From Candidatus Nanoarchaeia archaeon (GTDB lineage Archaea > Nanobdellota > Nanobdellia > Woesearchaeales > WJIZ01), in NCBI GenBank assembly GCA_028279765.1, contig JANQND010000011.1:30976-94975 (forward strand): a stretch of 64,000 nt of DNA, read 5' to 3'. A model generated the notes under the pieces. The model ran no database searches. It saw nothing but the letters and a program-made list of their open reading frames with translations, and was not told the origin of the DNA. How positions within the stretch are numbered: position 1 is the first letter of the stretch; each line of letters starts with the position of its first letter. Positions 9,119 to 48,677 of the stretch are shown here, in pieces. The position numbers were made by a program, and so were the translations under genes.

Positions 9119-11040
9119 TTGCCTTCAAATTCTGCCCGTACAATATCGCGATCAATTCTTCGGATGCACTCAGACATTTTATCGCGCAGATCACCATCAG
9201 TTGTTGCCTTGATGATTTGCTTTTGCACATCAATGATTCTTCTGAATAACCGAATAATATCTCCTTCTAATAGGTTGCAGTACCCGAGCAACTCAATGAA
9301 CTGCTCCTCATTGGACCAGGCACTGATCATTGCGGTGAGCCGAAAGAGGCTTTTCTTGTTGATTTGACGATCAAGATAGCGATTAGGACAAATAATGCTT
9401 AGAATATGCCCATAGGTTGATTTGGCTCCTTTGGTCACGAATTTATCCATCCTGCGCTCTTCATACACAATTGCTGCAATGATACAGTTAATCTCTGTGA
9501 CAGAGAGTTTTTTGTACATCTGTGAATAAAAGAGTTCGCTGATGAGCAATTCTTCAAAATAGATATGGGTTGCGAAATCACCTTTTCCGGTGATGTGCTT
9601 TTCTTCATCGATATATCCCATCTTGGTCAGGTTTTTGACTTTATTGTTATAGGAGGCAACAATTCTTACTTGTTTATCCGACTTTGTTCGCAGAAAATAA
9701 TCAAAGTTACTCTTGAGAATCGTGTCGATCTCTTCTTCTGTGTGTGCCTTGATAAGGTTGAGAACCGTATTTACGGATAATCGAAATTGAGAGACAATCG
9801 GCTCAATGTCCTTATCGGTGAGTTTCTTTATTTTTTCAATGTCTGCCCGTCTTCGATCCACTAAGGCGATGACAGTTCCGTGCGTATCAATTCCTCTTCT
9901 TCCTGCTCTTCCTGCAAGCTGGAAATATTCTTTGGAATTGAGGTAGCGAAAGGAATACCCATCATATTTCTCTAATGAATCAAAACAGACGGTCTTTGCG
10001 GGCATATTGATCCCTACGGCAAAGGTTTCGGTTGCGTAGAGTACTGAGATGAGTCCTTTTTCAAAGAGCCGCTCTACAATCTCCTTGAGATTAGGGAGTA
10101 GTCCTGCGTGATGATAGGCAATTCCTTTGGTGAGGCACTCTCTGATCTTTCGATAGCTCTGCATTTGCCTCACTTCAGCATTGAGATGCTTATTGATGAT
10201 TTCGATGATTTCTTTTTTCTGCTGTTTTGAGCAGTAATCACGCATCTTAGCAAGCTCCTGGCTGTATTTCTCGCAGGATTTTCTGTTGAAGATAAAATAA
10301 ATGACCGGGACATTGTTTCCGATTTCCTTGATGAGGTCCTTGTGATTGGCAGGGTATTCTCTGGGCTGCTTTCTTCTTCCTCTGCTCCTGATGGAGTAGG
10401 TGGGAATGTCCTGGATATGGGTTAATTTCTCTACATCAGTAACCCCGAGGGTTTTCTCGAAGACTGAGTGCGTGAGGGGAACCGCTCGCTTGTCATGCGA
10501 GACCACATGCACGTTATGCCCTTTGATAGAGGAGATCCATTCAGCGAACTCTTCAGCATTGGGAATAGTAGCAGAGAGGCATAAGAACCGAATAGTAGTT
10601 GGAGAGAAAATAATGGATTCTTCCCAGACTGTTCCTCTTTCTCTATCAGAGATATAGTGAATTTCATCAAAGATAACATAGCTGAGATGCTCCATGATGT
10701 CATCGCGGCTCAACAGCATGTTTCGATAGATCTCAGTGGTCATGACTAAGAGCGGTGCATCGGGGTTGATAACAACATCACCAGTCATGATTCCTACATT
10801 TTCTTTGCCGTAATCATTGATGAAATCCTTGTACTTTTGATTTGAAAGCGCCTTGATAGGCGCCGTATAGATAACTCTTCTTTTGGATTCGAGAAATTTA
10901 TGAATAGTATAGTCGGCAGTAAGAGTTTTTCCTGTCCCGGTTGGTGCAGAGACAATGACCGAATCGTTGTTTTCGATATGATTGATGGACTGAACCTGAA
11001 ATTCGTCCAGTGTTAACCCTTTAAATTGCATGAATTTCAA
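9115..11040 (-). CDS. Ski2/Mtr4/HelY-like SF2 RNA helicase with C-terminal DSHCT domain
   Basis: Walker A APTGTGKT, a DEIH box and SAT. The C-terminus (LLEGDIIRLFRRIIDVQKQI...RRIDRDIV) resembles the DSHCT domain of Mtr4/Ski2/HelY. No arch/KOW insertion at 641 aa. Confidence 0.7.
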   Translation of the reverse strand: MKFMQFKGLTLDEFQVQSINHIENNDSVIVSAPTGTGKTLTADYTIHKFLESKRRVIYTAPIKALSNQKYKDFINDYGKENVGIMTGDVVINPDAPLLVMTTEIYRNMLLSRDDIMEHLSYVIFDEIHYISDRERGTVWEESIIFSPTTIRFLCLSATIPNAEEFAEWISSIKGHNVHVVSHDKRAVPLTHSVFEKTLGVTDVEKLTHIQDIPTYSIRSRGRRKQPREYPANHKDLIKEIGNNVPVIYFIFNRKSCEKYSQELAKMRDYCSKQQKKEIIEIINKHLNAEVRQMQSYRKIRECLTKGIAYHHAGLLPNLKEIVERLFEKGLISVLYATETFAVGINMPAKTVCFDSLEKYDGYSFRYLNSKEYFQLAGRAGRRGIDTHGTVIALVDRRRADIEKIKKLTDKDIEPIVSQFRLSVNTVLNLIKAHTEEEIDTILKSNFDYFLRTKSDKQVRIVASYNNKVKNLTKMGYIDEEKHITGKGDFATHIYFEELLISELFYSQMYKKLSVTEINCIIAAIVYEERRMDKFVTKGAKSTYGHILSIICPNRYLDRQINKKSLFRLTAMISAWSNEEQFIELLGYCNLLEGDIIRLFRRIIDVQKQIIKATTDGDLRDKMSECIRRIDRDIVRAEFEGN

Positions 11041-12970: not shown

Positions 12971-13074
12971 GGGCTCTTAGCTCAGCCTGGTTAGAGCGAT
13001 CGCCTCTTACGCGACTGGTTATATACCAGTATGAAGAAAGCGATAGGTCGGGGGTTCGAATCCCCTAGGGCCCA
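12971..13074 (+). tRNA. tRNA-Lys(CUU) with about 29-nt intron in the anticodon arm
   Basis: Cloverleaf folded by hand. Acceptor GGGCTCT/AGGGCCC, D-stem GCTC/GAGC, anticodon stem ATCGC/GCGAT, loop CUCUUA(A/C), T-stem GGGGG-TTCGAAT-CCCCT, discriminator A. The intron (~cgcgactggttatataccagtatgaagaa) contains its own hairpin. No CCA is encoded. Confidence 0.75.
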
Positions 13075-20551: not shown

Positions 20552-20646
20552 GGGCTGGTAGTTAAATCTGGAAGCTGGGAACAGTTGGATAATATAACGC
20601 GCCGCTGGCAGCGGTGAGGCTCCGGGTTCAAATCCCGGCCAGTCCA
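20552..20646 (+). tRNA. tRNA-Ala(GGC) with non-canonical intron (about 18-20 nt) in the D-loop
   Basis: Folded by hand. Acceptor GGGCTGG/CCAGTCC with a G3:U70 pair, the alanine identity element. U8-A9, D-stem GTTA/TAAC enclosing a 30-nt loop (normally 8-11), anticodon stem CGCCG/CGGTG, loop CUGGCAG, T-arm CCGGG-TTCAAAT-CCCGG, discriminator A. Confidence 0.65.
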
Positions 20647-41328: not shown

Positions 41329-41718
41329 ATGAATGAGAGAAATGTAGTTGGATGGTTTGAGATAGTAGTCTCTGATATAGAACGAGCGGTGAAGTTTTAT
41401 AACGAATTGTTTGGCTTTAGTATGGAAGCGGTAGATTTTGGTGAAGCAAAGATGGCAATGTTCCCTGCTGATTTTGAGAAAGATCTTCCAGGGGCAGCAG
41501 GCGCGCTTTTTTTGGATACACAGAGAAAGCCTAGCAGTGACGGAACGTTGGTTTATTTTACCTCTCCTTCAGGTGATTGTGCAAACGAACAAAAAAAAGC
41601 TCAAGAGCTCGGAGCGAAGATAATCACGGAAAAATACGAGATTCCTGAGGGTCACGGATTTATGATACTGATTGAAGACTCCGAGGGGAATACTATTGCT
41701 ATTCATTCAAGAGAATGA
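41329..41718 (+). CDS. VOC/glyoxalase-bleomycin resistance family protein
   Basis: About 130 aa with a beta-alpha-beta-beta-beta module (VGWFEIVVSDIERAVKFY). The start could be the ATG at 41314. Confidence 0.7.
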   Translation: MNERNVVGWFEIVVSDIERAVKFYNELFGFSMEAVDFGEAKMAMFPADFEKDLPGAAGALFLDTQRKPSSDGTLVYFTSPSGDCANEQKKAQELGAKIITEKYEIPEGHGFMILIEDSEGNTIAIHSRE

Positions 41719-41960
41719 GTGATGAGAAAAGAGCGCCGACGCCCGGAATTTCACGACTGGTTACGCTCGGTCGACACGCAATGAGGGTTTCGCTTGGCTC
41801 AAGCCCTCTGCTTTATGTCCTGCGCACCTGCTCTTTTGAACCGGGATATCCTTTCGGAAACTGGCTACCTTGACCTTTAATGCAAAGGCACTCAAGGCCA
41901 GCGCAATACCAGGTTATGCGACATCGGCATAGTCTTTACGAAATAAATCATTTTTATAAG
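41719..41960. ncRNA. GC-rich non-coding island, candidate structured RNA (identity unresolved; RNase P RNA or SRP RNA are possibilities)
   Basis: About 240-nt intergenic segment at roughly 52% GC in a 40% GC context with no ORF. The minus strand has GAAATTCCGGGCGTC, matching the RNase P CR-I GAAAGUCCGGGCUCC at 12/15, but it sits at the 3' end in that orientation. Confidence 0.3.
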
Positions 41961-42007
41961 GTTATTGGTTTTTGGGCAGCTAGTATTCTCTCTACAATTC
42001 TTGGCTA

Positions 42008-43219
42008 TTACCTATTTGTTAGCCGCGCCTGAAAGTAGGGGGCAGGGACACGATTTTTGAAATCCTTTGCCCACTCATTCGTTTCAATTATTGATCTCAG
42101 AAAAGGAAGAGAAACATTTTTTCCCTTGGCATAATTGAAAAAGCCAATCGTGTCCTTTGGAAGGCAGGATCCGCCATAGGCGACGGGGAGTCCTCCTTCA
42201 CCCCCCTTGGTTCCATACTCTGGGTTCCGATATGCTTCAGCTGTTTTTATAATCGTATTTTTAACAAGTAAGGAATTAATGTTGAGATGATTATTGAATG
42301 TGTCAACTTCTTTTGCGAATGCCAAGCTTAACAATTCCAGATATGCTCCTGACCAGTGCTTTGAATCTCCTTTGCCGTATTGAATGTTCAGCCCTACGTC
42401 TTGCAGAGCAGTATTATACATGGAGTTAGAGCATAGTTTATTCTCAGGTATCTCTTGCAGATTCAGGGTAAAGGAGTCTGTCTGGCTCGTGAATAATGTT
42501 CGTTTCAGTTCTAGAAATGAAACTTGCGCACCTTTTCTCACTTTTAGAGGAGATCCATTCACTAACACTGCTACTTCTGCTATCTCATTAAAAGCAGAAA
42601 TCTTGAATGCATTAGCAATATTATGCCAATACTTGATGGACTCAGCAGTTCGATAATCCACAGCTAAGAACTCTGCACCAAAGGAAGAGTATAGATTAAA
42701 AAGAGCATCTTTTGTCCTCTGATCTCGTGTGCCTACTACAGTAACTTGAGGGTTTGCAAAATCCGCTTCTGCGCTTGCAGCTCTCATGAATTCGGGATTC
42801 ATGCACAGGCCCAAGTCTTGACCGATCTTCCTTGCAGAGCTCTGCTCGAGAAGCCTTTCTATTGATTCTGTAGTTCCCGGAGGAACAGTGCTTCTGATTG
42901 CAACGATCGGATAGCCCTGCGGGCTTTCTTTTAACTCCTTGCCAATTTGAGTAACAGTATCCTGCAAGTAGTCAAGATTTATTCTTCCTTCTAAGCCTTT
43001 TGGTGAAGTAGGTGTAGGGACCGATACCAGAATGAGATTATGGTCATCTGAGAGATACCTCTGTTTTGCATCCTGAACATGGTACTCTTCATTAGCTAAT
43101 ATGCTCAAAACACTATCATCTGTATCAGCGAAGGTAACAGAGAGCCCTTTTTGTGCAAATACTTTTCCTGTTGCAGATCCGACAACGCCGGAGCCTATGA
43201 TTGCAATGTTATGATCCAT
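42008..43219 (-). CDS. Nucleotide-sugar dehydrogenase family (UDP-glucose/GDP-mannose 6-dehydrogenase-like), atypical architecture
   Basis: N-terminal Rossmann fold IGSGVVGS and catalytic-Cys motif GGSCLPKD. The Cys lies unusually close to the C-terminus (about residue 352 of 403). Confidence 0.55.
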   Translation of the reverse strand: MDHNIAIIGSGVVGSATGKVFAQKGLSVTFADTDDSVLSILANEEYHVQDAKQRYLSDDHNLILVSVPTPTSPKGLEGRINLDYLQDTVTQIGKELKESPQGYPIVAIRSTVPPGTTESIERLLEQSSARKIGQDLGLCMNPEFMRAASAEADFANPQVTVVGTRDQRTKDALFNLYSSFGAEFLAVDYRTAESIKYWHNIANAFKISAFNEIAEVAVLVNGSPLKVRKGAQVSFLELKRTLFTSQTDSFTLNLQEIPENKLCSNSMYNTALQDVGLNIQYGKGDSKHWSGAYLELLSLAFAKEVDTFNNHLNINSLLVKNTIIKTAEAYRNPEYGTKGGEGGLPVAYGGSCLPKDTIGFFNYAKGKNVSLPFLRSIIETNEWAKDFKNRVPAPYFQARLTNR

Positions 43220-43417: not shown

Positions 43418-44980
43418 ATGTCAGGAGAAGTCCATGATGAGTGCGGTGTTGCTGCGGTCTATTTTAAGCAAAACGGCTCATCAGAAAACAAGGCCTTATT
43501 CTATCTATACAAATTGCTACTCAACCTGCAAAACCGCGGGCAGCTTAGTGCAGGGGTTTCAACTTTTAACCGGCAGCGCAGGCAGATTCTTCAAACGTAT
43601 CGCGACATTGGGACCGTCAATGAGGTCTTTAAGACCAGCAAGAAAGAGAAGAGCATGGCTATTTTCAATAAGTATTCGGGCAATAAAGGAATTGGCCATG
43701 TCCGGTACGCAACGTTCGGAAAAAATGAGCGATCGTACGCGCAGCCTTTTGAGCGCCATCACGGCCGCTTATGGAAATGGTTCTCGTATTGCTTCAACGG
43801 AAACCTGGTCAATTATGTTTCTCTGAGAGAAGAGCTGGAAAAGAAGAAGGAATATCACTTTATTCTGGAAAACGATACCGAAATGATCATGCATTATATC
43901 TCTCGCGAGCTTGCCGGAAATAAAAAGCCATCTTTGCGAACGGTCTTTTCTAACCTGGCAAAGAAATTTGAGGGATCGTATAACATGGCTTTTGCGAACG
44001 CTATGGGAGAGATCGCGGTTACCCGTGACCCACTCGGCTTTAGACCACTTTGTTATGTCATTGAGGATGGCAATATGCTTGCAGCATCCGAATCAAACGC
44101 ACTGGTTAACGCAGGATTCGAGAATTTCAAAGACCTTGAACCCGGCAAGATGATCCATGTGGAAGATGGCGAAGTCAGCGTAAAGCGATATGCTAAATCT
44201 GAGAAAAAAGCGTTTTGTATGTTTGAATATGTGTATTTCTCTAATGTGTCTTCTATTATGAATGGCAAATCGGTTTATATCACCCGAACAAACTTGGGAA
44301 AAGAGCTTGCTAAACTGGAAACCCAGAAGATTGACGATGATTGCATCGTGGTCCCTGTACCTGACAGCGCAAAGGCTGCCGGCGATTCCTTTGCCTATGA
44401 GCTGGGCATTCCTTCCCGCGAGGGCTTAATCCGAAACCGATATGTTGGTCGGACTTTTATTGAGGGTACGAGCAGAAAGGACAAAATTCAAAATAAGTTT
44501 ACGATTGTGAAAGAAGTTCTTAAAGGAAAACGGGTTTTCCTTGTTGACGACAGTATTGTTCGCGGAACAACGACTGACCAGCTGGTGCGCAGCCTGAAGG
44601 AAGAAGGCGGTGCTAAGGAAGTGCACGTGCGTGTAAGCTGCCCTCCTATCATGGGCCCTTGCTTCTACGGGATTGATATGAGTACGTTGCATGAGCTTCT
44701 TGCACCACGATTTATCAAAGAGCCTCAGGATGCAGTTCCCGAAAATGAGGCTGACAATCTTGCAAAACATATCGGTGCTGACACGATTATCTACCAAACG
44801 ATTTCTGGTTTGGTTCGCAGTATCGGCATTCCACGAAAAGATTTATGCATGGCCTGCCTGGACAGAAAGTATCCTACCCCGCTTGGAAAGTCTTTATTTA
44901 AAATTGGGCTTGAGAATTATCAGAGCGGCAAGCATGAAGAAGGACGTGCGTATGAGCGCGCGGTGCAGTGTGGGTGTTAG
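43418..44980 (+). CDS. purF: Amidophosphoribosyltransferase-like class II glutamine amidotransferase (PurF family)
   Basis: Propeptide then Ntn Cys (MSGEVHDE/CGVAAVYF), PRTase motif VFLVDDSIVRGTT, and C-terminal Cys residues. Confidence 0.7.
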   Translation: MSGEVHDECGVAAVYFKQNGSSENKALFYLYKLLLNLQNRGQLSAGVSTFNRQRRQILQTYRDIGTVNEVFKTSKKEKSMAIFNKYSGNKGIGHVRYATFGKNERSYAQPFERHHGRLWKWFSYCFNGNLVNYVSLREELEKKKEYHFILENDTEMIMHYISRELAGNKKPSLRTVFSNLAKKFEGSYNMAFANAMGEIAVTRDPLGFRPLCYVIEDGNMLAASESNALVNAGFENFKDLEPGKMIHVEDGEVSVKRYAKSEKKAFCMFEYVYFSNVSSIMNGKSVYITRTNLGKELAKLETQKIDDDCIVVPVPDSAKAAGDSFAYELGIPSREGLIRNRYVGRTFIEGTSRKDKIQNKFTIVKEVLKGKRVFLVDDSIVRGTTTDQLVRSLKEEGGAKEVHVRVSCPPIMGPCFYGIDMSTLHELLAPRFIKEPQDAVPENEADNLAKHIGADTIIYQTISGLVRSIGIPRKDLCMACLDRKYPTPLGKSLFKIGLENYQSGKHEEGRAYERAVQCGC

Positions 44981-45083
44981 TTCTCTATTGTTTCTTCCAC
45001 CAATAGTAACATTTATATAGCCTGAACCAAAACCTACACAGAAGAGAGAGAAAGACGGTGCGCTTTTCTCTGGGTTTAATAGA

Positions 45084-45440
45084 ATGGTGAAACCCAAACC
45101 AAGTTCACGTGAAAAAAAACGTTATGTGGTCTTTGCGCTGGCATCTAAGGAGACGTTCAGTTACGAGGTCGTAAAGCATGCGCTGCAGAAGAACCTTTTG
45201 CGCTATATCGGTGAATTCGGCTACGAGAAAGCTCAGTTATATGTGATAAAAAATACCTATTCTCCTCAACAAAAAAAAGGAATACTGCGCGTGACGAATA
45301 AGTCTCTGTCGCAGGTTAAAGAGTCATTTTCCATGCTCAAGGATATTCAGGGAAAAAAAGCAAGCCTTAACATCCTGGGTATTAGCGGAATACTCAAAAA
45401 AGCAAAATATAAGTTTTTGACAAATAAACAAAAGAAATAA
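45084..45440 (+). CDS. RNase P protein subunit Pop5 (Rnp2)
   Basis: REKKRYVVFAL...GILRV...ILGISGILKKAK matches the Pop5 consensus. First gene of the exosome superoperon. Confidence 0.7.
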   Translation: MVKPKPSSREKKRYVVFALASKETFSYEVVKHALQKNLLRYIGEFGYEKAQLYVIKNTYSPQQKKGILRVTNKSLSQVKESFSMLKDIQGKKASLNILGISGILKKAKYKFLTNKQKK

Positions 45441-45468
45441 TCACGTTTACAGACGAGGTGGATACACT

Positions 45469-46206
45469 ATGCAACCAATGCAGCATCAAATGATGGGTTA
45501 TGATCGAGCGATAACCATGTTTTCTCCGGATGGGAGATTACTACAGGTAGAATATGCAAAAAAGACCGTACGGCAGGGCAGTACCGCAATAGGAATGGCT
45601 TGCTCTGACGGAGTTATTGTCGTAACAGACAAGCGAATCGTAGACAGCTTAATTGTTTCTGATTCTGTGGAAAAAATATTTCAGATTGATGAGCATATTA
45701 GCGCAACTGCGTCAGGCATTCTCTCTGATGCACGCGTTCTCATTGAGCGGGCGCAGGTGAAGGCGCAGCAGAATCGCATCACATTCGGATCCCCTATTGA
45801 TACCCTGAGCATTGTGAAAGATATTTGCTCCCTGAAACAAATTTGCACACAGTCTGGAGGCCTTCGGCCATTTGGTGTGTCTGTTCTGGTAGCGGGTATT
45901 GATAACGAAACTCCGCGCTTATATCAGACCGACCCTACGGGAATTTATTTTGAGTATAGGGCATCTGCTCTTGGAGAAGGTGGCGAAGAAGCCGAAGAAA
46001 TTCTCAAGAAGGAATACAAGCCTGAGCTTACCATGGATGAGGGGCTTGCGATTTCTGTTAGCGCTCTGAAAAAAGTATTAGGTGAGAAATTTAGCCTTGA
46101 TCGTGTAGATGCAGCGTATGTCTCCGTGAAGAATAAGGTATTTACCCGCTATACACGAGAAGAAATTGAAGCGGTATCCAGCGGAAAGAAAAAGAAGAAG
46201 AAATAG
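45469..46206 (+). CDS. psmA: Proteasome subunit alpha
   Basis: GYDRAITMFSPDGRLLQVEYA is the canonical alpha-subunit N-terminus. Confidence 0.9.
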   Translation: MQPMQHQMMGYDRAITMFSPDGRLLQVEYAKKTVRQGSTAIGMACSDGVIVVTDKRIVDSLIVSDSVEKIFQIDEHISATASGILSDARVLIERAQVKAQQNRITFGSPIDTLSIVKDICSLKQICTQSGGLRPFGVSVLVAGIDNETPRLYQTDPTGIYFEYRASALGEGGEEAEEILKKEYKPELTMDEGLAISVSALKKVLGEKFSLDRVDAAYVSVKNKVFTRYTREEIEAVSSGKKKKKK

Positions 46207-46256
46207 AGAATAAAGAGACGATAAATAAGTATGATTAAATTCTAAGGTGAAAAACA

Positions 46257-46988
46257 ATGAGTGAAATAGTAGTAAAGGAAAAGGAGATTGTCATTCCTGG
46301 CCAGCTACTGGCAAAAGGAATGGACACGTTTCCGGCATCCGGCTCCTACCGTGAAAAAGAAGATATTTTTTCAGGAAGAGTTGGTGTGGTATATATCGAC
46401 GGACGGGCAATCAAAGTTATTCCCCTCTCTGGCGCCTACATGCCAAAAGTTGGTGATGTTATCATTGCAAAAGTGATTGATATCACGATGAGCGGATGGA
46501 GAGTTGAGACTAATAGTGCCTACTCTGCAATGCTTCCCCTCAAGGATGCAACTTCTGAATATATTCAGCGGGGAGCAGATTTGTCCAGTTATTATGCGAT
46601 CGGCGATCATGTGGTCTGTAAGATCACGAATGTTACCAGCCAAAAACTGGTTGATGTTGCCATGCGCGATCCCGGACTCAAGAAATTATCTGGCGGGAGA
46701 ATTTTTAGTGTGAACACTAACAAGGTTCCCCGGATTATCGGCAAGAAAGGGTCTATGGTGAGCATGATAAAACAAGCAACTGGCTGCAGAATCGTTGTAG
46801 GACAGAACGGATTAGTATGGATCCAGGGAGAGACAGACAATGAGTTTATTGCTGTTGACACGATCAAGAAAATCGAGAAGGAATCCCATATTTCGGGACT
46901 TACGAATCGCATTAAAGAGTATCTTGAAGAGAGAACTCAAAAGAAGTTAGAAGGAGTTGAAGAGAATGAGCTACACACAAAGGCATGA
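46257..46988 (+). CDS. rrp4: Exosome complex RNA-binding protein Rrp4 (S1 + KH)
   Basis: N-terminal domain, S1 domain and KH domain (IIGKKGSMVSMI). Lies in the conserved position. Confidence 0.85.
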   Translation: MSEIVVKEKEIVIPGQLLAKGMDTFPASGSYREKEDIFSGRVGVVYIDGRAIKVIPLSGAYMPKVGDVIIAKVIDITMSGWRVETNSAYSAMLPLKDATSEYIQRGADLSSYYAIGDHVVCKITNVTSQKLVDVAMRDPGLKKLSGGRIFSVNTNKVPRIIGKKGSMVSMIKQATGCRIVVGQNGLVWIQGETDNEFIAVDTIKKIEKESHISGLTNRIKEYLEERTQKKLEGVEENELHTKA

Positions 46989-47673
46989 TGGCAGAGCACC
47001 GGATGAGCTTCGGGCAATGGAAGCAAAGGTTGGTGTGATCAAGAACGCAGACGGTTCTGCATTTTTCAAAATCGGCAATACCTCTGCATACGCAGCAGTG
47101 TATGGGCCCCGGAACCTGTATCCGAAGTTTTTGCAGAACCCGGACAAGGGAATTTTACGTTGCTCTTATAATATGCTGCCGTTCTCCGGTTCAGGAGAGC
47201 GAATCAGGCCAGGACAAAACAGGCGCGCAAAGGAAATCTCGATGGTTACCGAGAAAAGCTTGCTCTCTGTTCTGAACCTGGATGAGTATCCGAATGCAGT
47301 AGTTGATGTATTTATTGAACTGCCACAGACAGAGGCAGGCTCACGATGCGCAGGCATCTGCGCTGCATCCATGGCACTTGCTGATGCAGGGCTTTTGATG
47401 AAGGATTTAGTGAGTGCAGTCTCTGTTGGGCGAGTAGGTGATATGCTGGTGGTTGACCTTGATTATGCTGAAGAGGCGTATGAGGATGGACCCGTTGCGG
47501 ACATCCCCGTTGCTATGACGCATAACAGCTCAGAGGTTACGCTACTGCAAATGGATGGCGAGATCTCAAAGGATATGCTGATGAAAGCAGTTGAGATGGG
47601 AAAAGCAGCCTGCGAAAAAATCTATGAAGTTCAAAAAGAAGCACTGAAGAAGAAGTATGAAGGAGCTGAGTAA
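46957..47673 (+). CDS. rrp41: Exosome complex exonuclease Rrp41 (RNase PH-like)
   Basis: RNase PH domain (RHDGRAPDELR, GSAFFKIGNT). The start may be the internal Met at 46966. Confidence 0.85.
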   Translation: MKRMSYTQRHDGRAPDELRAMEAKVGVIKNADGSAFFKIGNTSAYAAVYGPRNLYPKFLQNPDKGILRCSYNMLPFSGSGERIRPGQNRRAKEISMVTEKSLLSVLNLDEYPNAVVDVFIELPQTEAGSRCAGICAASMALADAGLLMKDLVSAVSVGRVGDMLVVDLDYAEEAYEDGPVADIPVAMTHNSSEVTLLQMDGEISKDMLMKAVEMGKAACEKIYEVQKEALKKKYEGAE

Positions 47674-47674
47674 A

Positions 47675-48445
47675 ATGAGTGAATTAAAATCATATCTCGT
47701 TGACCTTTTGAAAAAAGGAAAGCGACTGGATGGCAGAAACATTCTTGATGTTCGAGCCCCTTTTACTATTGAATATGGCGTTTCCAGCACTGCAGAAGGC
47801 TCTGCCCAGGTTACCCTGGGAGACACTGTTGTTATGGCAGGTGTCAAAGTTGAAGTAGGAACACCATATCCTGACCAGCCGGATCAGGGATCCATCATGG
47901 TTGGGGCTGAACTTATTCCGCTTTCAAGCCCTCGTTTCGAGGCCGGACCCCCAACTATTGAGGCAATTGAGCTTGCCCGTGTTGTTGATCGTGGTATCAG
48001 GGAGAGTAAAGCTATAGATTTCAAGAAACTGTGCATCGAGGTTGGTGAAAAAGCCTGGATTATTATCATTGATATTGTAGTGATGAACGATGACGGCGGC
48101 TTGTTTGATGCTTCTTCGCTTGCGGTACTTGCTGCACTCAAGGACATGAAGTTCCCTGAGTATGCTGATGGCAAGATTGAGTATAAGAAGAAGACCGACA
48201 AGGGAATGGAGCTTGAGAAAGAGCCTATCGCGGTTACTGTCTTCAAGGTAGGGCCGCACCTGATTGTTGACCCAACCCGGGAAGAAGAAGAGGTTGCAGA
48301 TGCCCGCCTGACTATTACGACTACTGTCGACGGCACTATTTGCGCACTTCAGAAAGGTGGCGACTATCCGCTTCTTGAAGAGGAAATTTCTCAGATGATT
48401 GATATTGCTATCGAGAAAGCAAAAGTTCTGAGGGAGGCACTATAA
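47675..48445 (+). CDS. rrp42: Exosome complex subunit Rrp42 (inactive RNase PH-like)
   Basis: RNase PH-like fold. Start placed at MSELKSY directly after the rrp41 stop. The track's start at 47657 overlaps rrp41. Confidence 0.8.
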
Positions 48446-48446
48446 A

Positions 48447-48677
48447 ATGGATGCTACGTACACGAAGTATGAAGAAGCGCGAATTATTGGCTCCCGGGCA
48501 CTGCAAATCAGCATGGGCGCCCCTTTTCTGGTTAAACTAAAAGATGCTGACCTTGAGAAGATCAAGTATAACCCTGTTGAGATTGCGAAACTGGAGTTTA
48601 CTGAGGATGCCATACCGATCACGGTAAAGGCTCCTCAGCCTCGCTCTAAAAACGTTTCTGAAGAAGACGAGAAATAA
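48447..48677 (+). CDS. rpoK: DNA-directed RNA polymerase subunit K (Rpb6/omega homolog)
   Basis: [21 protein letters not shown] is a conserved RpoK/Rpb6 motif. Confidence 0.8.

What the first reader, a model, noticed from the sequence alone, without database searches (positions are those of the whole stretch)
41719..41960. Third unexplained GC-rich non-coding island, possibly the RNase P or SRP RNA gene
This 240-nt ORF-free segment is about 52% GC in a 40% GC genome. It lies between a VOC-family gene and a convergent dehydrogenase gene and is rich in internal complementarity. The minus strand carries GAAATTCCGGGCGTC, close to the universally conserved RNase P RNA CR-I/P4 sequence GAAAGUCCGGGCUCC. 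In that orientation, however, it sits at the 3' end, so the assignment is not clean. The window does encode the RNase P protein Pop5 and other RNA-processing proteins, so a catalytic or structural RNA gene nearby is plausible.
Basis: partly seen in the sequence, partly recalled or inferred. Interest (0 to 1): 0.5.

Follow-up and report, generated by a model that had tools for sequence, protein, structure and literature searches.

The report
Serine tRNA gene with two introns
The GC-rich "island" is not RNase P or SRP RNA: it is a serine tRNA gene on the minus strand, split by two introns that hide it from standard tRNA finders, a known kind of gene in these tiny DPANN archaea.

Summary
Window 41734-41928 (minus strand) is a 195-nt tRNA-Ser(UGA) gene with two introns. 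A 24-nt intron sits at the canonical 37/38 site with a textbook bulge-helix-bulge (BHB) motif. An 87-nt intron sits in the T-loop at 59/60 with a relaxed BHB. Removing both in silico gives an 84-nt class II tRNA, which ARAGORN calls tRNA-Ser(tga). It is 90% identical to an intron-less relative. A covariance model built only from intron-less relatives has its best window hit here (44.8 bits, E 1e-9).

An archaeal TATA box lies about 31 nt upstream, and a T-run follows the discriminator base. In related Woesearchaeota-like contigs an intron-less tRNA-Ser(UGA) occupies the matching spot next to purF. Excluding this window's own sequence, 12 of 68 related genes carry an intron at the same T-loop site.

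No Rfam family, including RNase P and SRP RNA, matches. The "CR-I-like" motif is the 3' end of intron 2 plus the T-stem and acceptor strand.

This is a new member of a known kind, so interest is modest. One side lead: the core of the T-loop intron is a conserved hairpin-plus-tail module. In other genomes it also lies next to tRNA genes, in three loci between duplicated tRNA ends.

The parts
41951..41959 (-). TATA-box-like promoter element TTATAAAAA, about 31 nt upstream of the first tRNA base
   Evidence: Read directly from the sequence. The two other tRNA genes in the window have TTTAAAT or TTTATAAAA about 34 nt upstream, and related tRNA-Ser genes show the same layout. Function is inferred, not shown.
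41891..41928 (-). Exon 1 (tRNA positions 1-37): acceptor 5' strand GCCGAUG, D-arm, anticodon stem 5' strand, and loop CUUGAG containing anticodon UGA
   Evidence: In-silico splicing followed by ARAGORN; covariance-model alignment; homology to the tRNAs in L009 and L011.
41867..41890 (-). Intron 1, 24 nt, at the canonical 37/38 position, with a strict hBHBh' motif: central helix CUUG/CAAG, bulges AG|U and GU|A, outer helix GCCUUU/AAAGGU
   Evidence: Read directly from the sequence. The covariance model places a 25-nt insertion in the anticodon loop. 28 of the other 68 related genes have an intron at this site.
41835..41866 (-). Exon 2: anticodon stem 3' strand, long variable arm UUUCCGAAAGGAUAU, T-stem 5' strand CCCGG, and T-loop UUCAAA (to position 59)
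41748..41834 (-). Intron 2, 87 nt, in the T-loop at 59/60. The central helix is UUCA/UGAA and the 3' bulge is AU|U. The 5' splice site lies in a 5x2 internal loop, which makes this a relaxed BHB.
   Evidence: Twelve related genes have an intron at the same site, 21-128 nt long, all ending [UC]G[AG]A-A[GU]|U.
41755..41817 (-). Conserved module 'E' inside intron 2: a hairpin (5-bp covarying stem, UU/AA, tandem GA/GA, 2 bp, short loop) followed by the tail UUGCGUG..ACCGAGCGUAACCAGU
   Evidence: nhmmer finds homologues in L035 and L023 (6e-07 and 8e-05 with the window intron alone as query; the 1e-19 to 1e-16 come from a profile built from those same sequences). Hairpin-only copies occur in L107, L061, L087 and L106. 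Six of nine pairs show compensatory changes across 7 sequences. Function is unknown.
41734..41747 (-). Exon 3: U60, T-stem 3' strand CCGGG, acceptor 3' strand CGUCGGC, and discriminator G73. No CCA is encoded.
41724..41733 (-). T-rich tract CUCUUUUCUC directly after the discriminator, a likely archaeal terminator
   Evidence: Read directly from the sequence. The scan flags a terminator-like site here, and relatives have T-runs at the same place. Function is inferred.

Best explanation
Window 41734-41928 (minus strand) encodes a class II transfer RNA, tRNA-Ser with anticodon UGA, in three exons separated by two protein-spliced archaeal introns.

The inferred maturation pathway is as follows. 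Transcription starts about 25-30 nt downstream of the TATA box at 41959-41951 and stops at the T-run at 41733-41724. RNase P and RNase Z trim the ends. The tRNA splicing endonuclease EndA cuts at the two BHB motifs: the strict one at 37/38 and the relaxed one at 59/60. RtcB-type ligase joins the exons, and CCA is added.

The product is an 84-nt tRNA with a 7-bp acceptor stem, a 3-bp D-stem, anticodon loop CUUGAGA, a long variable arm, T-loop UUCAAAU and discriminator G73.

Shown here: the exon/intron anatomy, the homology, the BHB geometry, and the recurrence of both intron sites in relatives. Inferred from established archaeal tRNA biology: transcription, cleavage and ligation.
For: 1. Removing 41890-41867 and 41834-41748 gives an 84-mer that ARAGORN calls a full-length tRNA-Ser(tga). 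Removing only one intron, or neither, gives no tRNA-Ser call; only ARAGORN's intron mode calls the intron-2-removed construct, as a spurious tRNA-Tyr(gta).

2. The spliced sequence is 90.5% identical to a naturally intron-less relative.

3. Covariance model R1 was built only from 27 intron-less tRNA-Ser(UGA) genes. Its best hit in the window is 41823-41922(-), at 44.8 bits and E 1.4e-9. The alignment has a 25-nt insertion exactly in the anticodon loop and breaks down exactly after UUCAAA.

4. nhmmer with the element hits tRNA genes in L009, L010 and L011, which Rfam scores at 54.6-54.9 bits. They lie just upstream of purF and are divergently oriented, the same relative position as in the window.

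5. Intron 1 forms a perfect helix-bulge-helix-bulge-helix motif with symmetric cut sites (sequence).

6. Intron 2 keeps the T-stem, the 3-nt 3' bulge and the 4-bp central helix. Twelve other genes have an intron at the same site. The central helix is conserved or compensated: UUCA/UGAA, UUCG/CGAA, UUCA/UGGA.

7. Splicing at the predicted sites restores exactly the motifs that are invariant in relatives, CUUGAGA and UUCRAAU.

8. The promoter and terminator are correctly placed.

9. The other two tRNA genes in the window also carry introns, one of them in the D-loop.

10. The literature lists 59/60 as a known non-canonical intron site (PMC4090602). It also reports many disrupted tRNA genes in DPANN lineages (its dataset included a Woesearchaeota genome) and suspects more undetected ones (PMC5829648).
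Against: There are no expression or splicing data. The 5' splice site of intron 2 lies in a 5x2 internal loop rather than a clean 3-nt bulge, so cleavage needs an endonuclease with relaxed specificity, and this organism's EndA was not examined. Only 64 kb of the genome is visible, so I cannot show that this is the only tRNA-Ser(UGA) gene. A close relative (L102, whose acceptor stem differs by 1 nt) lacks the T-loop intron, so that intron is not ancient or obligatory.
Confidence: 0.9

Rival explanations
1. It is a dead tRNA-Ser pseudogene, broken by two insertions and neither spliced nor used.
For: Intron 2's BHB is relaxed on the 5' side. tRNA-Ser loci in relatives carry many fragments and direct repeats, so decay products exist in this lineage. 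The close relative L102 lacks the T-loop insertion.
Against: Both insertions sit exactly where excision restores the invariant loop sequences. All 23 cloverleaf pairs are intact after splicing. Intron 1 has a perfect BHB. The T-loop site recurs in 12 other genes with the central helix kept. Promoter and terminator are intact. The gene occupies the syntenic tRNA-Ser position next to purF, and no second tRNA-Ser(UGA) is found in the window.
Confidence: 0.06
2. It is an RNase P RNA, an SRP RNA, or another free-standing structured non-coding RNA of about 200 nt.
For: The segment is GC-rich. Its 5' and 3' ends pair, it has its own promoter and terminator, and it matches the quoted CR-I string at 12 of 15 positions.
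Against: No Rfam family matches, even at E<=10. The paired ends are a tRNA acceptor stem. The motif is explained by the intron end plus the T-stem. Homologues are ordinary 84-nt tRNAs.
Confidence: 0.01
3. It is a degraded protein-coding remnant.
For: Short ORFs of 44-52 aa overlap it.
Against: These ORFs have no Pfam hit. Conservation with relatives follows RNA pairing, with compensatory changes, and not a reading frame. In L035 the homologous intron-core module lies after a stop codon.
Confidence: 0.01

Closest known systems
Multiple-intron tRNA genes of Thermoproteales and other archaea (Sugahara et al. 2007, 2008; reviewed in PMC4090602 and PMC4033280)
   Same: One canonical 37/38 intron plus a non-canonical one. 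Both are defined by BHB or relaxed BHB motifs. 59/60 is a listed site. Such genes are missed by standard tRNA finders.
   Different: The host is a DPANN (Woesearchaeota-like) archaeon, not a crenarchaeon. The T-loop intron is long (87 nt), and its core is a conserved module that also occurs outside introns.
Disrupted tRNA genes of DPANN archaea and their broad-specificity splicing endonucleases (ARMAN epsilon2 EndA, PMC3239211; alpha4 EndAs with the L3 loop, PMC5829648)
   Same: The same superphylum. [quoted passage not shown]
   Different: This gene and the recurrent 59/60 intron of tRNA-Ser(UGA) were not found described in the papers I read. This organism's EndA type was not determined here.
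tRNA intron gain by integration of mobile elements at tRNA ends (Caldiarchaeum model, PMC3293823)
   Same: Relatives show direct repeats of tRNA-Ser termini flanking short inserts. One such insert (L023) carries the same module as this window's intron 2, and its repeat starts at position 60, the intron's 3' splice site.
   Different: No integrase, recombinase or terminal repeat is present in this window. The inserts in relatives are only 60-180 nt. The link is an inference.
Archaeal RNase P RNA, CR-I/P4 region
   Same: There is a short string resemblance (GAAAUUCCGGGC against GAAAGUCCGGGC).
   Different: There is no covariance-model match. The motif is at the 3' end, there is no CR-V partner, and the sequence is fully accounted for as intron end plus T-stem.

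Membership tests
tRNA, class II (tRNA-Ser) | Cloverleaf: 7-bp acceptor stem, D-arm, 5-bp anticodon stem with a 7-nt loop, 5-bp T-stem with loop UUCRANY | tested here: met
   After in-silico removal of the two introns, ARAGORN draws a complete cloverleaf. Covariance model R1 aligns the exons.
tRNA, class II (tRNA-Ser) | Long variable arm, a serine anticodon and discriminator G73 | tested here: met
   Variable arm UUUCCGAAAGGAUAU, anticodon UGA in loop CUUGAGA, and G at 41734. The same features are present in 27 intron-less relatives.
tRNA, class II (tRNA-Ser) | Homology to bona fide tRNA-Ser genes | tested here: met
   nhmmer hits to tRNAs in L009 and L011, which Rfam RF00005 scores at about 55 bits. 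The spliced sequence is 90.5% identical to an intron-less relative.
tRNA, class II (tRNA-Ser) | Expressed, spliced and aminoacylated with serine | not testable with these tools
   No transcriptome or biochemistry is available.
Archaeal BHB (endonuclease-spliced) intron | Intron 1: helix, 3-nt bulge, 4-bp helix, 3-nt bulge, helix, with cuts after the second bulge base | tested here: met
   The anticodon stem, then bulge GU|A, helix CUUG/CAAG, bulge AG|U, and a 6-bp outer helix (sequence).
Archaeal BHB (endonuclease-spliced) intron | Intron 2: the same motif at the T-loop | tested here: inconclusive
   The T-stem, 3' bulge AU|U and central helix UUCA/UGAA are present. The 5' site is in a 5x2 internal loop, giving a relaxed form. 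Relatives with an intron at this site mostly show a 3-nt 5' bulge.
Archaeal BHB (endonuclease-spliced) intron | Cleavage by EndA and ligation by RtcB | not testable with these tools
   Inferred from established archaeal tRNA splicing.
Archaeal RNase P RNA (RF00373) | Match to the covariance model; CR-I and CR-V forming P4; P1-P3 upstream of CR-I | tested here: not met
   There is no hit at the gathering score in the window, and none at E<=10 in 41400-42300. The motif is at the 3' end and no sequence follows it.
Archaeal SRP RNA (RF01857) | Match to the covariance model; helices 5, 6 and 8 | tested here: not met
   No hit.

The most novel reading that the evidence does not exclude
The 87-nt T-loop intron may be more than a spacer. 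Its 63-nt core (41755-41817) is a conserved hairpin-plus-tail RNA or DNA module. In other DPANN genomes the module lies outside introns, next to tRNA genes, and in three loci it sits between direct repeats of tRNA 5' or 3' ends. In L023 the repeat starts at position 60, which is this intron's 3' splice site.

The most novel reading not excluded is that the module marks a family of very small tRNA-targeting insertion elements that create T-loop introns. These could equally be the conserved arm of larger integrative elements. A related possibility is that the excised intron yields a stable functional small RNA.

One more observation bears on this. Relatives L009, L010 and L011 hold a complete tRNA-Ser(UGA) nested between the 5' part (positions 1-47) and the 3' part of a second tRNA-Ser(UGA). 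The nested gene is flanked by 16-18-bp complementary arms whose sequences differ between loci. This could mean a tRNA gene carried inside a tRNA intron.
Probability: 0.2. Interest if true: 0.6.

Novelty: new member of a known kind. Interest (0 to 1): 0.3.

Why it matters
In practice, the locus is an example of a tRNA gene that both ARAGORN and the Rfam tRNA model miss. Genome annotations of DPANN archaea will therefore under-count tRNAs and may wrongly infer missing decoding capacity. The finding also removes a false lead for the missing RNase P or SRP RNA.

In evolutionary terms, the same T-loop 59/60 site is occupied by unrelated introns of 21-128 nt in 13 of 69 distinct tRNA-Ser(UGA) genes, counting this window's own. 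Other loci show duplicated tRNA ends around short inserts. Together these give a compact data set for testing whether archaeal non-canonical introns arise from insertions at tRNA integration hot spots.

Tried and rejected
- **Rfam scans.** A gathering-threshold scan of the whole window and a permissive scan (E<=10) of 41400-42300 found nothing in the element.
- **ARAGORN on the window.** It misses the gene.
- **Pfam on the three short overlapping ORFs.** No hits, so the coding-remnant idea was dropped.
- **Exact look-up of the VOC protein.** It is not on record.
- **Look-up of the dehydrogenase.** It returned only an identical Logan contig, which gives no comparative information.
- **Genome-contig scan with the dehydrogenase.** The protein search showed the dehydrogenase has no close homologue. 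Synteny was finally obtained through purF.
- **Repeat search for the element within the window.** None found.
- **Viral-contig scans.** One scan used the tRNA pattern. One used the 16-mer ACCGAGCGTAACCAGT from the intron module. Both gave only chance matches in coding sequence.
- **Search for direct repeats of the tRNA-Ser termini in the window, as a sign of an integrated element.** None found.
- **K-turn or C/D-box reading of the intron hairpin.** I considered this, but the non-bulged strand has two extra A residues and there are no C/D boxes, so I did not adopt it.
- **BHB at the outer junctions of the nested tRNAs in L009 and L011, and the T-arm of the outer L011 gene.** I tried to define both and could not resolve either.

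Full report
**Observation**

The segment 41719-41960 lies between a glyoxalase/VOC gene (41329-41718, +) and a convergent UDP-glucose/GDP-mannose dehydrogenase-family gene (43219-42008, -). It contains only short ORFs without Pfam matches. Its GC content is 49.2%, not 52%. The core at 41734-41928 is 54.9% GC, in a window that averages 41.6% and whose other ORF-free gaps are mostly 25-40%. The quoted 15-mer is on the minus strand at 41752-41738. Folding favours the minus strand: z is -1.77 against -0.56, and -2.57 for the trimmed 198-nt RNA.

**Known RNA families**

Rfam 15 finds only one tRNA in the whole window, at 12971-13074. It finds nothing in this segment even at E<=10. RNase P RNA and SRP RNA are therefore not supported.

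**Anatomy on the minus strand**

A TATA-like TTATAAAAA (41959-41951) lies about 31 nt upstream of G41928. From there GCCGAUG pairs with CGUCGGC near 41741-41735. A G and the T-rich CUCUUUUCUC follow. The two other tRNA genes in the window have TATA-like elements about 34 nt upstream.

**Finding relatives**

The flanking dehydrogenase has no close homologue anywhere. The next gene, purF, placed the organism among Woesearchaeota/Nanoarchaeota-like DPANN archaea, with the best named hits at 74-76% identity.

Contigs carrying those purF genes were fetched. nhmmer with the element hit L009, L010 and L011 immediately upstream of purF on the opposite strand. Rfam calls those hits tRNA at 54.6-54.9 bits. 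They are 84-nt class II tRNAs with anticodon loop CUUGAGA, that is, tRNA-Ser(UGA).

**Parsing the window element**

By alignment to these tRNAs, the window sequence reads as follows:

| Part | Coordinates (minus strand) | Length | Notes |
|---|---|---|---|
| Exon 1 | 41928-41891 | 38 nt | acceptor 5' strand, D-arm, anticodon loop to position 37 |
| Intron 1 | 41890-41867 | 24 nt | canonical 37/38 site |
| Exon 2 | 41866-41835 | 32 nt | variable arm, T-stem 5' strand, T-loop to position 59 |
| Intron 2 | 41834-41748 | 87 nt | T-loop 59/60 site |
| Exon 3 | 41747-41734 | 14 nt | T-stem and acceptor 3' strands, G73 |

Removing both introns gives an 84-mer that ARAGORN identifies as a complete tRNA-Ser(tga). 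With only one intron removed, or neither, no tRNA-Ser is called. ARAGORN's intron mode calls the intron-2-removed construct only as a spurious tRNA-Tyr(gta). The spliced sequence is 90.5% identical to an intron-less relative.

**Intron motifs**

Intron 1 forms a textbook hBHBh' motif. In order, it has the anticodon stem, bulge GU|A, 4-bp helix CUUG/CAAG, bulge AG|U and a 6-bp outer helix.

Intron 2 keeps the T-stem, a 3-nt 3' bulge AU|U and a 4-bp central helix UUCA/UGAA. Its 5' site lies in a 5x2 internal loop, so this is a relaxed BHB. Cutting at these sites restores CUUGAGA and UUCAAAU, which are invariant in relatives.

**Independent test**

A metagenome scan with a pattern spanning the D-loop to the anticodon returned 116 stretches. 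From them, and from the purF-derived loci, I extracted 69 distinct tRNA-Ser(UGA) genes.

A covariance model (R1) was built only from 27 naturally intron-less genes. Its best hit in the window is 41823-41922(-), at 44.8 bits and E 1.4e-9. The alignment has a 25-nt insertion in the anticodon loop and collapses right after UUCAAA. No other tRNA-Ser(UGA) exists in the window. Intact relatives score about 102 bits.

**Recurrence in relatives**

| Class | Distinct genes (of 69) |
|---|---|
| Intron-less | 32 |
| 37/38 intron only | 19 |
| T-loop 59/60 intron (9 of them also with a 37/38 intron) | 13, including this window's sequence |
| Other forms | 5 |

The T-loop introns are 21-128 nt long and mostly unrelated in sequence. 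All end with [UC]G[AG]A-A[GU]|U, so the central helix is kept or compensated: UUCA/UGAA, UUCG/CGAA, UUCA/UGGA. This is the pattern expected of functional endonuclease-spliced introns.

In many relatives the junction reads UGAAAG|UCCGGGC. This explains why the string resembles RNase P CR-I.

**Comparison with the literature**

59/60 is among the listed non-canonical archaeal intron sites (PMC4090602). DPANN lineages are reported to have L3-loop EndAs associated with increased tRNA gene disruption, and further undetected disrupted tRNA genes are suspected in some DPANN and Asgard genomes; that study's dataset included a Woesearchaeota genome (PMC5829648). The finding is therefore a new member of a known kind.

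**Mechanism**

The exon/intron structure, the homology and the BHB geometry are shown here. Transcription from the TATA box, end trimming by RNase P and RNase Z, EndA cleavage, RtcB ligation and CCA addition are inferred from established archaeal tRNA biology.

The main rival is a dead pseudogene. It is unlikely for five reasons:
- the exons are intact;
- the splice sites are exact;
- the gene is in the syntenic position;
- the promoter and terminator are intact;
- the intron site recurs in relatives.

I give it about 6%.

**Side lead: a conserved module in intron 2**

The core of intron 2 (41755-41817) has homologues in L035 and L023. nhmmer with the window intron alone gives 6e-07 and 8e-05. 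The 1e-19 to 1e-16 values come from a profile built from these same sequences. Hairpin-only copies occur in L107, L061, L087 and L106.

Six of the hairpin's nine pairs show compensatory changes across seven sequences. None of these copies is inside an intron. In L035 the copy lies in the gap between an ORF and the tRNA-Ser gene, and in L107 it lies just upstream of the tRNA.

In three loci the module is flanked by duplicated tRNA ends:
- L023: between the tRNA-Ser 3' end and a direct repeat of positions 60-73;
- L061: between repeats of another tRNA's 3' end;
- L093: a tail-only copy (E 0.012) flanked by repeats of the tRNA-Ser 5' end.

[quoted passage not shown] This resembles integration scars and fits the mobile-element model of intron gain (PMC3293823). 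The window itself has no such repeats and no recombinase, so this remains a hypothesis.

**Side lead: nested tRNA genes**

In L009, L010 and L011 a complete tRNA-Ser(UGA) lies between the 5' part (positions 1-47) and the 3' part of a second tRNA-Ser(UGA). The inner gene is flanked by 16-18-bp complementary arms whose sequences differ between loci. In L011 the outer acceptor strands (GCCGUGG/CCACGGC) match each other and differ from the inner pair. I could not resolve how, or whether, the outer gene is spliced.

**Verdict**

This is a tRNA-Ser(UGA) gene with two introns (confidence 0.9). It is neither RNase P RNA nor SRP RNA. As a known kind of feature it has modest interest (0.3). It also serves as a small caution for annotating tRNAs in DPANN genomes, and it offers a lead on how T-loop introns originate.

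Noticed in passing
window 20552-20646 (+): A tRNA-Ala(GGC) with G3:U70 and an insertion of about 17-22 nt in the D-loop, which is a non-canonical intron. The Rfam tRNA model misses it at the gathering score, and ARAGORN reports only a truncated 20578-20646. Any D-loop deletion of 17-30 nt gives a full-length tRNA-Ala. The exact splice sites were not determined.
   Followed up: partly
window 12971-13074 (+): A tRNA with a 31-nt intron in the anticodon loop. All three tRNA genes in this 64-kb window therefore carry introns.
   Followed up: no
window 42008-43219 (-): A 403-aa UDPG_MGDP_dh-family protein with no close homologue among 5.8 billion proteins. The next best hit is 41% identical over 53% of the query, and homologues are about 300 aa long. 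The gene sits between tRNA-Ser and purF, which are adjacent in relatives, so it looks like a lineage-specific insertion.
   Followed up: partly
window 41755-41817 (-); L035 811-873; L023 170-229; hairpin-only copies in L107, L061, L087, L106; tail-only copy in L093 2431-2461: A conserved hairpin-plus-tail module (covarying 5-bp stem, tandem GA/GA, tail ACCGAGCGUAACCAGU). It is found inside this window's T-loop intron. Elsewhere it lies near tRNA genes, and in three loci it sits between direct repeats of tRNA termini. Its function is unknown.
   Followed up: partly
L009 5579-5865 (-), L010 (same arrangement), L011 about 9475-9712 (-): A complete intron-less tRNA-Ser(UGA) is nested between the 5' part (positions 1-47) and the 3' part of a second tRNA-Ser(UGA). 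It is flanked by 16-18-bp complementary arms that differ in sequence between loci. In L011 the outer acceptor strands match each other and differ from the inner pair. This may be a tRNA gene inside a tRNA intron. The splicing motif was not resolved.
   Followed up: partly
L020, L023, L035, L040, L066, L069, L084, L090, L106, L111, L115 (downstream of each tRNA-Ser gene): Direct repeats of the tRNA-Ser 3' end, most starting near T-loop positions 57-61, lie 60-180 nt downstream of the gene. L090 has three tandem copies 90 nt apart. They resemble att-site scars of integrated elements, and most repeat boundaries lie close to the 59/60 intron site.
   Followed up: partly
L017, L108, L086, L094, L093, L031, L049, L051 (T-loop intron 3' junctions): The junction reads UGAAAG|UCCGGGC or UGAAAG|UCCCAG. 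The first form contains the literal RNase P CR-I string GAAAGUCCGGGC by coincidence. This is a trap for motif-based RNase P searches in these genomes.
   Followed up: yes
window 43418-48661; L011 10001-15268: Pop5 belongs to a conserved block of purF, Pop5, proteasome alpha, Rrp4, Rrp41, Rrp42 and RpoK. Its presence says nothing about a nearby RNase P RNA gene.
   Followed up: partly
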